Source of the DNA: Candidatus Hermodarchaeota archaeon
GTDB taxonomy: Archaea > Asgardarchaeota > Thorarchaeia > Thorarchaeales > Thorarchaeaceae
Assembly: GCA_048885865.1 (NCBI GenBank)
Contig: JBHLLF010000069.1
Coordinates: 1-11,980 of the forward strand
Length of the DNA stretch: 11,980 nt
Reading direction: 5' to 3'
The notes beneath the pieces were generated by a model. The model made no database searches. It was not told the DNA's origin and saw only the letters and a program-made list of their open reading frames with translations. Below are positions 7,477 to 10,179 of this stretch, piece after piece (position 1 is the first letter of the stretch; each line of letters opens with the position of its first letter). Position numbers and translations under genes: made by a program.

Positions 7477-10179
7477 CTAAATCACTAGCTGTTTCTTTTC
7501 TCTAGTCAGCTCCTCAGCCTCTTTCATTGCTTCATCATAGATGTCAATTGGGAATCTGTCATGGATAGGCGAGATCCTCGATCCAAGAGATATTGACCCA
7601 TAGAATCTTCTAGCCAGCCATCCAATGCCCCGCATGGTCACCATATCTGATGCACGCTTGAATTCCGTTACTGTTCGCGTGTCCCAAGTGCCAGTGAGTC
7701 CGCTAATGAATGAATACAGGTAAAGCGATGGAAGGACGCCAATGAAGAACAATATAGCAGATGTCACAATCTCACCTTGCCAGATGAACACCGCTAGTAT
7801 CTCTAGGACGAGGAAGTTTGCGATTGCCGCCAAAGCAGGTCCAGCATAGCTCTGCCAGAGATAGAGCTTTGGAGCAGAGATGGTGCGCCTGATAAGAGCC
7901 CACATTGCAATGTCCTTGATGACAAGTGCTAGAGTATAGCCTGTTATTATCCCAGGCATTCCTCCAAGGTAGAGCCCGAACACAATCGGTTCTGTCAACA
8001 CGAAATATGTCATGAATATTGCTCGCAGCGACTGTTCGAGAATCCAAACAGCTGCTGCGAGACCGGTTCGGTCTGCTCCAGCGAACATCCAGTCACCGAG
8101 CCAGCTCCAGAAACCAAAAAGCTGGAAGATAAGGAAAAATTGGAGGAGTTCAGCTGCATATGCCCACTCAGCACCCGCGGCTCCCAGAATTGCCCTCCAA
8201 CCAAGGGCTGCTAGAACCGAAATAAGCCAGAACACAAAGAATGCTCCATATTTCAAGCCTTGAGCTGTATAAAGCTCGGTGAGTTTCTTCTTAGCATGAG
8301 AATACGCCTCAGAAACGCCACCAAGCATTCCCTCCATGAATAGACCTACTACTGAAACCATTATGGCGAGATCCCATGCCAGCTGAAACTGCCCTTGAAG
8401 AGCCGACCAATTCAAGAGGTTTGTGCTGATTAGAAGCATCTGATAGAACCAAACCAACGGAACTGCCGCTGCCCCTACAGTCCACTTTCCACCAAACTTC
8501 AGAGCCCTGGTGATTTGCTCTCTGCCAAAGTCGATTCGAAACAGTGTGCCCGTCTTGAGACCCAATCCACGGAATATGTAGAGACAGACAAAGAACGTGA
8601 GCCACTCAGATAAGTAAGACCCAATGGCCTGTCCTATAGCGCCTCCCAAAGCTTCACCGAATATAGGATTGCCTGCGCCCCAGATCCGAAACACGATAAT
8701 CAACGAATATTGCCCGACTATGTCGAATACTATGTATTTCAGCACGTAAGTCACTTGTTGGTAGTCGATTCGGTTCATGCCCCGGAACACATGAATGAAT
8801 AGCAGTGTGAATCCAGGGAATTGGAAAACAGAATGAGCAATGAAGACATAGGAGAGGTGCGCTAGGTAGGTGTGTGGAAAGACTATTGATCCCACAAATG
8901 CCACGATGGAAACCTGCACAACTCCGGTGATACATTGAAACCAGACGAATATCTGGGCATACTTGACTGCCTCTTCGGGCTGTGTGACTCTATATTCTGC
9001 AAAGTATTTTGCCAGTGCAACACTTGTGCCAAGATCAAATAGTGTCCATAGACCAAGAAAGAGGTTTACACTGAATGAGTACCATCCGGCTGCTTGGGGA
9101 AATGGCAGGATGAATAATGGATAGACCATAATGGTCAGGACTACACGTGGAATCACCAAGAGTAGAGTGATGAAGAGTTGAATTAGAAAGCCACCGAGTT
9201 GCCGGTGCATTCCAATATCTTCCCAATTGTCTATCTCTTCCTCTACTTCTACGAGCAATTCAGCCCGTTCAATCTCAGTCAGCACTTCTGGGTGACTCTT
9301 CGACCTCCTCTTCATCGTACGATAAGAAGAAAATGTCACTCCAGCCAAGACAATAACGATAATTCCGATTATGGCCTGCTGCTCAAATTTGGGAACCGGA
9401 GAGTAGTTCCATTCAGCATAAGTGAAGGCCGTTTCTCCGCCGAGAAACATGGTTGAGGAATATAGGAAGTAGTTGAAGTAGGGCCAAAGCACAATCTCAT
9501 CGTTGATCTGGCCATTATCAGCCATCGTGTCAACTGTCAGCCATGAAGTGAATACCATGACATTGCCTGCGCCGATTGGAGTATGAACAAGAAGTGGTGC
9601 GCCGTAGGTTCCAAACCCAGTATCGTTCGCCAGAAGTACAGATGAAATGGCTGAAAGAGTTGGTAGAACCGTGGTCTTCTCAGTAGGAGGAGCAGACGAC
9701 CAATCGTAGCCAAGGGCGGCATGAGTTGGATCGACAATACGCGTGACAATATTGGCGTGGTCGGGACTGCTATCAACATTGTTACTCAGAGTAATGCCCA
9801 GTTCCTGGAATCCAGTCCCGTTGGTAGAAGTAGCAGGACCAAGCAGCATGAGCAACCCCCCACCATTATTCAGGTATGTCAGAAGCGGAGTGACATCCGC
9901 TGGTCCAAGTGGAGTATCTATGAGGATAATCACAGACACACTAGAAAGCCCCAAAGCCTCAGAGATGGTATCAGCTTGGTCAAGCGTGATTGAGGATGAA
10001 TCGAGTGTAAGAGAACCCACCACAGCAGGAGCAGCATCACCCCCAACGACTGCAGCATGTACTGTTCCTGGAGCTTGAGCAGGAGTAAGTGGTCCAGCTA
10101 CAACTAAACCCAGAACAACCCCAGGGAGAAGTAGAAACATCATGAATGCTGATATCATTTGAGTCTGAGCACGATCCAT
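7477..10179 (-). CDS. MOP-superfamily (Wzx/MurJ/Rft1-like) oligosaccharide flippase fused to an N-terminal extracytoplasmic alpha/beta domain (900 aa)
   Basis: Start revised from 10308 to ATG 10179 (GGAGGT at 10189-10194, 9 nt spacing; avoids overlap with the methyltransferase). N-terminal hydrophobic signal/TM, ~230-aa low-charge soluble domain, TM IIGIIVIVLAGVTFSSY followed by RTMKRRSK, then about 14 hydrophobic helices counted by eye with the Wzx-like motif FDLGTSVALAKYFAEY and FG-type/VSEAYS segments in the second half. Confidence 0.8.
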   Translation of the reverse strand: MDRAQTQMISAFMMFLLLPGVVLGLVVAGPLTPAQAPGTVHAAVVGGDAAPAVVGSLTLDSSSITLDQADTISEALGLSSVSVIILIDTPLGPADVTPLLTYLNNGGGLLMLLGPATSTNGTGFQELGITLSNNVDSSPDHANIVTRIVDPTHAALGYDWSSAPPTEKTTVLPTLSAISSVLLANDTGFGTYGAPLLVHTPIGAGNVMVFTSWLTVDTMADNGQINDEIVLWPYFNYFLYSSTMFLGGETAFTYAEWNYSPVPKFEQQAIIGIIVIVLAGVTFSSYRTMKRRSKSHPEVLTEIERAELLVEVEEEIDNWEDIGMHRQLGGFLIQLFITLLLVIPRVVLTIMVYPLFILPFPQAAGWYSFSVNLFLGLWTLFDLGTSVALAKYFAEYRVTQPEEAVKYAQIFVWFQCITGVVQVSIVAFVGSIVFPHTYLAHLSYVFIAHSVFQFPGFTLLFIHVFRGMNRIDYQQVTYVLKYIVFDIVGQYSLIIVFRIWGAGNPIFGEALGGAIGQAIGSYLSEWLTFFVCLYIFRGLGLKTGTLFRIDFGREQITRALKFGGKWTVGAAAVPLVWFYQMLLISTNLLNWSALQGQFQLAWDLAIMVSVVGLFMEGMLGGVSEAYSHAKKKLTELYTAQGLKYGAFFVFWLISVLAALGWRAILGAAGAEWAYAAELLQFFLIFQLFGFWSWLGDWMFAGADRTGLAAAVWILEQSLRAIFMTYFVLTEPIVFGLYLGGMPGIITGYTLALVIKDIAMWALIRRTISAPKLYLWQSYAGPALAAIANFLVLEILAVFIWQGEIVTSAILFFIGVLPSLYLYSFISGLTGTWDTRTVTEFKRASDMVTMRGIGWLARRFYGSISLGSRISPIHDRFPIDIYDEAMKEAEELTREKKQLVI

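What the first reader, a model, noticed from the sequence alone, without database searches (positions are those of the whole stretch)
7477..10179. Flippase fused to a probable extracytoplasmic GIFT/GATase1-like domain: candidate coupled glycan flip-and-handoff protein
Seen: signal/TM, then a ~230-aa soluble domain (~10100-9420) with VIILID, DVTPLLTYLNNGGGLLMLLGP, PLLVHTPIGAGNVMVF and a closing WPYFNYFLY helix, then a TM with a basic cytoplasmic flank, an acidic linker and a 14-TM MOP domain. Known: the L-x-x-[YF]-x-x-x-GG-x-L-L and G-x-G-x-V patterns typify non-catalytic class I GATase-like folds, including GIFT domains of GldG, IFT52 and the oligosaccharyltransferase subunit Wbp1/OST48. MurJ and Rft1 are 14-TM MOP proteins of roughly 500-600 aa without such a domain. 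Inference: one polypeptide may flip a lipid-linked oligosaccharide and bind or present it outside, which would matter for the origin of eukaryotic N-glycosylation if the host is Asgard. I cannot confirm that the architecture is undescribed.
Basis: partly seen in the sequence, partly recalled or inferred. Interest (0 to 1): 0.75.

Follow-up and report, generated by a model that had tools for sequence, protein, structure and literature searches.

The report
MurJ-like transporter with outer cap domain
This archaeal gene encodes an uncharacterised membrane transporter built like the cell-wall flippase MurJ plus an outward-facing non-enzymatic cap; its relatives sit beside sugar-degrading rather than sugar-building enzymes, so it may bring sugars or glycolipids in rather than export glycans for protein glycosylation.

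Summary
Window 7477-10179(-) is an intact 900-aa Thorarchaeota protein: signal/TM, an outward class-I GATase-like domain without a catalytic triad, a TM, a charged linker and a 14-TM MurJ-like MOP domain (VIA Z 23.8, 484 residues). The OST48/N-glycosylation reading is not supported. The domain is closer to STM3548/GATase1_like (Z 19.7) than to IFT52 or OST48 (13.2, 12.8). The family is largely bacterial (Chloroflexota) and occurs in only 103/301 Asgard genomes, whereas AglB is near-universal in the host family. The pyrophosphate-binding arginines of MurJ/Rft1 are missing. Glycosyltransferases flank 15/20 ordinary Asgard Wzx genes but only 1/99 Asgard family loci. Instead, signal-less glycosidases (GH1, 3, 4, 5, 29, 31, 32, 38, 63) lie within 2 kb in four independent Asgard contexts and in 22/36 loci of one Chloroflexota clade. 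Best reading (0.45): an inward-working glycoside or glycolipid transporter with an accessory cap, which some Lokiarchaeia encode as a separate gene. Direction and cargo are inferred from neighbours only, and this window itself has no such neighbour. The scan noted this architecture before in other genomes; the glycosidase link was not in the notes I saw.

The parts
7477..10179 (-). Complete gene, 900 aa, cap domain + MOP transporter fusion (P0001)
10096..10173 (-). N-terminal signal peptide or signal anchor (residues 3-28); cleavage not tested
   Evidence: hydropathy; helix H3-28
9388..10068 (-). Extracytoplasmic class-I GATase-like (GATase1_like/DUF7408-like) domain, residues 38-264, no Cys nucleophile or His-x-Glu; sequons at N120, N185, N258
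9388..9486 (-). Family-invariant membrane-proximal patch (residues 232-264, WPYFNY helix and W-x-x-SPVP), kept in stand-alone cap proteins
9304..9387 (-). Single TM anchor (residues 265-292) with basic cytoplasmic flank
9211..9303 (-). Charged cytoplasmic linker (residues 293-323), low pLDDT, no sequons in 85 Asgard members
7882..9210 (-). MOP core TM1-TM12 (residues 324-766); conserved D382, W378, Q409, W413, Q415, Q422, Q453, D472, E624, W693, D696, E715, R719; sequon N590 in the TM7-8 loop
7696..7860 (-). TM13-TM14 (residues 774-828), aligned with the extra helices of MurJ
   Evidence: 7wax, model 326-840 on chain 2-510
7480..7695 (-). Conserved cytoplasmic C-terminal helices (residues 829-900)

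Best explanation
A two-part MOP-superfamily transporter of an uncharacterised family. SHOWN (computationally): 14-TM MurJ-like fold; an outward, non-catalytic GATase1-like cap tethered by one TM; the cap also exists as a separate single-pass membrane protein. INFERRED: it works by alternating access, as other MOP proteins do. It moves a neutral glycoside, either a glycolipid or lipid-linked sugar (TM13-14 groove kept) or a small oligosaccharide, from the outer face to the cytoplasm. There, exo-glycosidases strip the sugars for catabolism or salvage. The cap is an accessory subunit that sits over the outer mouth and captures or gates substrate, or stabilises the transporter. In Asgard archaea the protein is probably itself N-glycosylated, i.e. 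a client of AglB rather than its partner.
For: Fold: MurJ 7wax Z 23.8, rmsd 3.2, 484 aligned; WzxE Z 21.9; best MATE Z 21.2 over 12 TM only. Context: GT2/GT4 within 5 kb in 15/20 ordinary Asgard Wzx loci against 1/99 Asgard and 5/92 bacterial family loci. Glycosidases within 2 kb: 15 genes in 363 kb near the gene against 0 in 850 kb further out in the same Asgard loci; 0/20 Wzx loci; 22/36 loci (34 genes) in one presumed Chloroflexota clade. Families confirmed by Pfam/NCBIfam: GH1, GH4, GH5, GH31, GH32, GH38, GH29, GH3 and GH38, GH31 and GH63/MGH1-like. The linkage survives rearrangement (GH1 upstream in most loci, downstream in L135/L139) and recurs in four separate Asgard contexts (Heimdallarchaeaceae GH31, Heimdallarchaeum GH3, L037 GH38, L206 GH63) on the tree. 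None of the 53 glycosidase ORFs has a hydrophobic N-terminus like the fusion's. Other neighbours: MFS_2 sugar symporters, RhaA, GSDH, FGGY, Gfo/Idh/MocA. TM1 and TM8 carry almost no Lys/Arg (mean 0.15 and 0.12) but conserved Asp/Glu/Gln/Trp, unlike the cationic triad of MurJ and R334 of Rft1 (PMC6465408, PMC12714016). Split form: a cap-TM gene lies divergent to a MOP-only gene in L203; a MOP-only gene and a separate cap gene occur in G165; 23 such short cap proteins (a few may be contig-end fragments) keep the WPYFNY and SPxP motifs wholly or in part.
Against: All functional evidence is guilt by association. The window's own Thorarchaeota context has no glycosidase (methylase, S17e, ligase, queD), nor do 56 other bacterial loci or most Asgard contexts. 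Eleven of the 15 Asgard cases are one inherited GH31 linkage. The glycosidase queries were picked from neighbours, so the near/far contrast is partly circular. GH3 does not track the gene across Thorarchaeota genomes, and GH38 is too common to be informative (231/301). From my own knowledge, characterised prokaryotic MOP proteins export. One bacterial copy (L169) lies in a glycosyltransferase-rich cluster. In G000 this is the only MOP gene detected. Which residues line the cavity was inferred from helix position, not read from coordinates.
Confidence: 0.45

Rival explanations
1. Outward flippase for a lipid-linked glycan used in N-glycosylation or another surface glycan, with the cap presenting the glycan to AglB as OST48 might.
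For: MurJ/WzxE-like fold with TM13-14; homologs hit PF01943; OST48 and Wbp1 share the cap's fold at Z 12.8 and 10.7; G000 has AglB and no other detected MOP gene (the assembly is 87% complete and shows few GTs); L169 lies among GTs.
Against: AglB is in 71/77 genomes of the host family, including 19/19 of genus g9, where the fusion was found in 0/25. Ordinary Wzx-type genes of 420-560 aa are common in Asgard genomes, also in those with the fusion. GT neighbours 1/99 against 15/20. No TM1/TM8 Arg. The atlas cluster is 88% bacterial. True WBP1 homologs are reported only in Heimdallarchaeia (PMC10307638). AglB lies on another contig.
Confidence: 0.2
2. General membrane-lipid flippase or scramblase for salvage (lysolipids, polyprenyl phosphate, archaeal lipids); the glycosidase neighbours reflect only one use in some lineages.
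For: TM13-14 kept. A lysophospholipase-like Hydrolase_4 gene lies directly upstream in about 20 Lokiarchaeia-type loci, and an alpha/beta hydrolase directly downstream in 7 bacterial loci. LPG_synthase_C is adjacent in L179. Mostly single copy, tree broadly species-like within Asgard, many housekeeping contexts.
Against: Patchy presence (40/90 high-quality Asgard genomes) fits an accessory function. It does not explain nine glycosidase families next to the gene. Lipid-catabolic genes are abundant in Lokiarchaeia (own knowledge), so the background is high.
Confidence: 0.2
3. MATE-like ion-coupled exporter that removes aglycones or other small products released by the neighbouring glycosidases.
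For: MATE structures score well (6fhz Z 21.2; top Foldseek E-value). Acidic residues in TM2, TM10 and TM11 could couple ions. It keeps the usual MOP direction and explains the glycosidase neighbours.
Against: 14 TMs aligned to MurJ over 484 residues, against about 413 for MATE; no MatE Pfam hit; an outward cap has no obvious role in efflux; the neighbours include alpha-mannosidases and alpha-glucosidases not typical of aglycone release.
Confidence: 0.15

Closest known systems
MurJ lipid II flippase (MOP; PDB 7wax, 7waw, 6cc4, 5t77)
   Same: 12-TM MOP core plus TM13-14; Z 20-24 over 444-484 residues; cytoplasmic N-terminus
   Different: 12-14% identity; no TM1/TM8 arginine triad; extra outward cap, anchor TM and C-terminal helices; present in archaea, which have no peptidoglycan
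Wzx/PST flippases (PF01943; WzxE 9g9n, 9g9p)
   Same: Only MOP Pfam family hit by members (N-lobe, up to E 1e-20); Z 21.9 over 404 residues
   Different: Wzx genes sit in glycosyltransferase clusters (15/20 controls); this family does not (1/99); WzxE has 12 TM and no cap
Rft1 (eukaryotic Man5GlcNAc2-PP-Dol scramblase)
   Same: 14-TM MurJ-like MOP architecture (PMC12714016)
   Different: No PF04506 hit among scanned members; TM8 Arg equivalent to R334 lacking; no Rft1 structure appeared in the searches, so no direct comparison
GATase1_like / STM3548 (2gk3), 3rht, ThuA-like, DUF7408
   Same: Best fold matches of the cap (Z 19.7, 18.8, 16.5); non-catalytic class-I GATase-like; weak sequence hits
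   Different: Here the domain is exported and tied to a transporter
OST48/Wbp1 and IFT52/GldG GIFT domains
   Same: Same superfamily fold (Z 10.7-13.2); weak ABC_transp_aux hits over the first strands in 31/92 members
   Different: 6-9 Z units below the best match; PF03345 not hit; IFT52_GIFT only 3/92, far below cut-off

Membership tests
MOP superfamily | 12-TM two-lobed MOP fold | tested here: met
   Z 21-24 to MurJ, WzxE, MATE; PF01943 hits in members
MurJ/MviN | Extra TM13-14 | tested here: met
   model 326-840 aligns to 7wax 2-510
MurJ/MviN | Cationic cavity with Arg in TM1 and TM8 binding the pyrophosphate | tested here: not met
   mean K+R 0.15 in mid-TM1 and 0.12 in mid-TM8 over 209 members; feature from PMC6465408, PMC12714016; judged by helix position
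MurJ/MviN | Match to the MurJ profile or to E. coli MurJ sequence | tested here: not met
   no PF03023 or NCBIfam hit; hhalign probability 0.3%
Wzx/PST flippase | PF01943 above cut-off | tested here: met
   30.5 bits (cut-off 28.2); up to 74 bits in homologs; not reached by hmmscan of P0001 or by most bacterial members
Wzx/PST flippase | Location in a glycan-biosynthesis cluster | tested here: not met
   1/99 Asgard and 5/92 bacterial loci against 15/20 controls
Wzx/PST flippase | Flips a polyprenyl-PP-linked repeat unit | not testable with these tools
   needs reconstitution or complementation
Rft1 | Rft-1 profile (PF04506) match | tested here: not met
   absent from Pfam scans of P0001 and 38 members
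Rft1 | Structural grouping with Rft1 | tested here: inconclusive
   no Rft1 chain among listed hits
MATE | 12 TM and MatE (PF01554) repeats | tested here: not met
   14 TM; no MatE hit
Class I GATase-like superfamily (cap) | Flavodoxin-like GATase fold | tested here: met
   Z 19.7 to 2gk3, pLDDT 95 model
Catalytic class I GATase | Cys at the nucleophile elbow and His-x-Glu | tested here: not met
   G114-P115 at the elbow, T-S-W at the His position; no Cys in 20% or more of members at any cap position
OST48/Wbp1 | PF03345 match | tested here: not met
OST48/Wbp1 | Subunit of an oligosaccharyltransferase complex | not tested
   no co-fold with AglB run; distribution and context argue against it
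GIFT (GldG/IFT52) | Closest sequence and fold match to GIFT domains | tested here: not met
   IFT52 Z 13.2 against 19.7; only sub-threshold ABC_transp_aux and IFT52_GIFT hits

The most novel reading that the evidence does not exclude
A MOP-superfamily transporter that works inward: a retro-flippase or importer for glycolipids, lipid-linked glycans or free oligosaccharides, with a dedicated outer accessory subunit (fused or split). It would be old in Asgard archaea (Thor, Loki, Heimdall and Hodarchaeota-labelled members) and shared with Chloroflexota, and would feed cytoplasmic GH38/GH31/GH1-type glycosidases, in a manner like the cytosolic breakdown of free oligosaccharides by MAN2C1 in eukaryotes (analogy only; no eukaryotic homolog was seen).
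Probability: 0.35. Interest if true: 0.75.

Novelty: new variant of a known kind. Interest (0 to 1): 0.55.

Why it matters
MOP proteins are known as exporters or flippases that, to my knowledge, work without an outer accessory subunit. A family of several hundred members in two domains, with a near-obligate outer cap and catabolic neighbours, offers a direct test of whether this fold can import or salvage glycans and of what non-catalytic GATase1-like domains do. It would also define a sugar-acquisition route in Asgard archaea and Anaerolineae. It does not, on this evidence, bear on the origin of the eukaryotic OST or Rft1, and the database names 'oligosaccharide flippase' and 'lipopolysaccharide biosynthesis protein' are probably misleading.

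Tried and rejected
Cap against MOP domain co-fold without alignments gave no verdict (score 0.04); not used as evidence. PDB sequence search with the full profile: no hit. hhalign to E. coli MurJ: uninformative. OST48 profile in G000: none. Genome-level co-occurrence: GH38 near-ubiquitous; GH3 does not track the gene. Sulfoquinovosidase idea for the Heimdall GH31: the WIDMN-type nucleophile motif and best match to MalA point to an alpha-glucosidase. My first GT2 model failed and was rebuilt. No Chloroflexota genome handle could be obtained, so bacterial prevalence and the taxonomy of the glycosidase-linked clade are inferred from the tree and named relatives. The neighbour families of 347 aa and 926 aa stayed unassigned. 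The promoter scan was at chance level. Literature searches found no description of the architecture; subscription journals and TCDB/InterPro were not searchable. No Rft1 or PelG structure appeared in fold searches, which does not exclude kinship. The tree has no outgroup, so no direction of transfer is claimed.

Full report
Observation. The frame 7477-10179(-) gives an intact 900-aa protein. It lies between a divergent DNA methylase and a convergent S17e gene, followed by DNA ligase and queD. Its nearest homologs are Thorarchaeota proteins of the same length. An AF2 model from 100 homologs (pLDDT 85, pTM 0.85) shows a hydrophobic helix 3-28, an alpha/beta domain 38-264, a TM 265-292, a flexible charged linker and 14 TM segments.

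Membrane part. The best structural match is MurJ (7wax, Z 23.8, rmsd 3.2, 484 residues, including TM13-14). WzxE follows (21.9, 404 residues), then inward-facing PfMATE (21.2, 413); the wide search agrees. Identity is 11-16%. Members hit only PF01943 among MOP profiles. In MurJ, TM13-14 form the groove for the lipid tail and the cavity is cationic (PMC6465408). MurJ uses R24 and D25 in TM1 with R255 in TM8, and Rft1 uses R334, to hold the pyrophosphate (PMC12714016). In this family mid-TM1 and mid-TM8 have on average 0.15 and 0.12 Lys/Arg, while Asp, Glu, Gln and Trp are conserved in TM2, 3, 4, 10 and 11. I infer a neutral cargo, not a pyrophosphate-linked one. This rests on helix position, as I could not read coordinates.

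Cap domain. Folded alone (pLDDT 95) it matches STM3548 (Z 19.7), 3rht (18.8) and ThuA-like proteins (16.5) better than IFT52 (13.2), OST48 (12.8) or Wbp1 (10.7). Atlas neighbours are DUF7408 and GATase1_like proteins. Sequence hits to ABC_transp_aux (31/92) and IFT52_GIFT (3/92) are weak. There is no Cys at the elbow and no His-x-Glu. It faces outward: the MOP domain starts in the cytoplasm, so the anchor TM places the cap outside. Asgard members conserve sequon columns at 120 (61/85), 168 (62/85) and 590 in the TM7-8 loop (75/85) and have none in the linker; overall sequon excess is modest (349 against 243 expected, reverse control 288). Nine of 89 bacterial members have lipobox-like signals.

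Distribution. The family is in 103/301 Asgard genomes (40/90 of high quality), usually once. It is also widespread in Anaerolineae and occurs in Ardenticatenia and a deltaproteobacterium. The atlas cluster that best matches the cap (857-aa representative) has 896 members, 88% bacterial. Asgard and Chloroflexota members form separate groups, and the Asgard part roughly follows the lineages (midpoint root only). The cap is nearly always joined to the MOP domain. A divergent Lokiarchaeia subfamily is split: a 354-aa cap-TM gene sits back to back with a MOP-only gene in L203, and G165 has a MOP-only gene plus a separate cap gene. These short proteins keep the W-x-S-x-P, WPYFNY and SPxP motifs, most of them all three. 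This suggests the two parts act together; my co-fold gave no verdict.

Test of the N-glycosylation reading. AglB is in G000 on another contig and in 71/77 genomes of the family, including 19/19 of a genus where the fusion was found in 0/25. Ordinary Wzx-type genes are common in Asgard genomes. No OST48 match exists in G000, and WBP1 homologs are reported only for Heimdallarchaeia (PMC10307638). GT2/GT4 genes lie within 5 kb of 15/20 control Wzx genes but of 1/99 Asgard and 5/92 bacterial family genes. Against this, the gene is the only MOP gene detected in G000, though that assembly is 87% complete and shows few glycosyltransferases.

What the neighbours show. In one clade of presumed Chloroflexota, 22/36 loci have a glycosidase within 2 kb: GH1, GH4, GH5, GH29, GH31, GH32 and two GH38 types, in several gene orders. 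In Asgard loci there are 15 such genes in the 363 kb nearest the gene and none in the 850 kb further out. They amount to four events: GH31 in Heimdallarchaeaceae, GH3 in Heimdallarchaeum, GH38 in L037 and a GH63/MGH1-like gene in L206. None has a signal-like N-terminus. Sugar symporters, RhaA, GSDH, FGGY and Gfo/Idh/MocA genes occur in further contexts, and a lysophospholipase-like gene precedes it in many Lokiarchaeia. Limits: the queries came from neighbours, kin are not independent, 56 other bacterial loci and the window itself show no such link, and GH3 does not co-occur with the gene at genome level.

Mechanism and verdict. Most likely the protein moves a glycolipid or glycoside inward for cytoplasmic breakdown, with the cap as a capturing or gating subunit (0.45). 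Rivals are an outward glycan flippase (0.2; the specific OST48-like handoff is a small part of that), a general lipid flippase (0.2) and a MATE-like product exporter (0.15). It works like a MOP transporter and belongs to the superfamily, but fails the membership tests for MurJ, Rft1 and MATE, is only partly Wzx-like, and its cap fails those for OST48 and GIFT. I found no paper describing it. Earlier scan notes recorded the architecture, and one recorded the split form and called it an exporter of unknown cargo; the neighbourhood evidence here points the other way.

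Noticed in passing
window 7126-7434 (+): Ribosomal S17e gene convergent with the finding; homology starts at residue 21 of the listed ORF, so the true start is probably about 60 nt downstream. In most other Thorarchaeota loci it was not called at this position (ORF cut-off 90 aa).
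   Followed up: partly
window 1-7140 and 10256-11980: Thorarchaeota synteny: oxidoreductase/fumarase/sdh-like genes, 201-aa unknown, DNA methylase, fusion, DNA ligase, queD, then either a GTP-cyclohydrolase-like gene or (as here) a PAS/GAF histidine kinase with two response regulators (distal genes named by eye).
   Followed up: partly
G000:C29:8543-9709 (L003, L224): 389-aa protein without signal peptide, weakly matched by the cap profile (E 0.006); looks like a cytoplasmic GIFT/DUF4350-type domain protein.
   Followed up: no
L075:10816-11856, L206:6872-7870 and 5 more loci: Unknown 333-369-aa family next to the gene in two orientations in Lokiarchaeia; atlas gives only a weak Prenyltrans lead.
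   Followed up: partly
L169:10001-12844: Deltaproteobacterial copy that groups with the Asgard-rich side of the tree and lies beside glycosyltransferase, Glyphos_transf and sulfatase genes: the one clear biosynthetic context.
   Followed up: partly
L179:10708-11631: Stand-alone LPG_synthase_C (MprF synthase-like) gene directly downstream of a family member.
   Followed up: no
L085, L172 and about 30 Anaerolineae loci: Conserved run thiI-ubiD-unknown 229-aa membrane protein-scpB-fusion; this clade is fast-evolving and has no glycosidase neighbours.
   Followed up: partly
L227:127-2112; P0158: Cap domain fused behind another secreted domain (661 aa, G165), and a bacterial protein with two tandem cap domains.
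   Followed up: no
G000:C6:102244-107336: galT-galK-GH38 run (galT and galK named by eye), showing a catabolic role for one of the host's two GH38 genes.
   Followed up: no
L212:5203-7980: 926-aa unknown protein 55 bp downstream of and co-directional with a family member; no Pfam or PDB match.
   Followed up: partly
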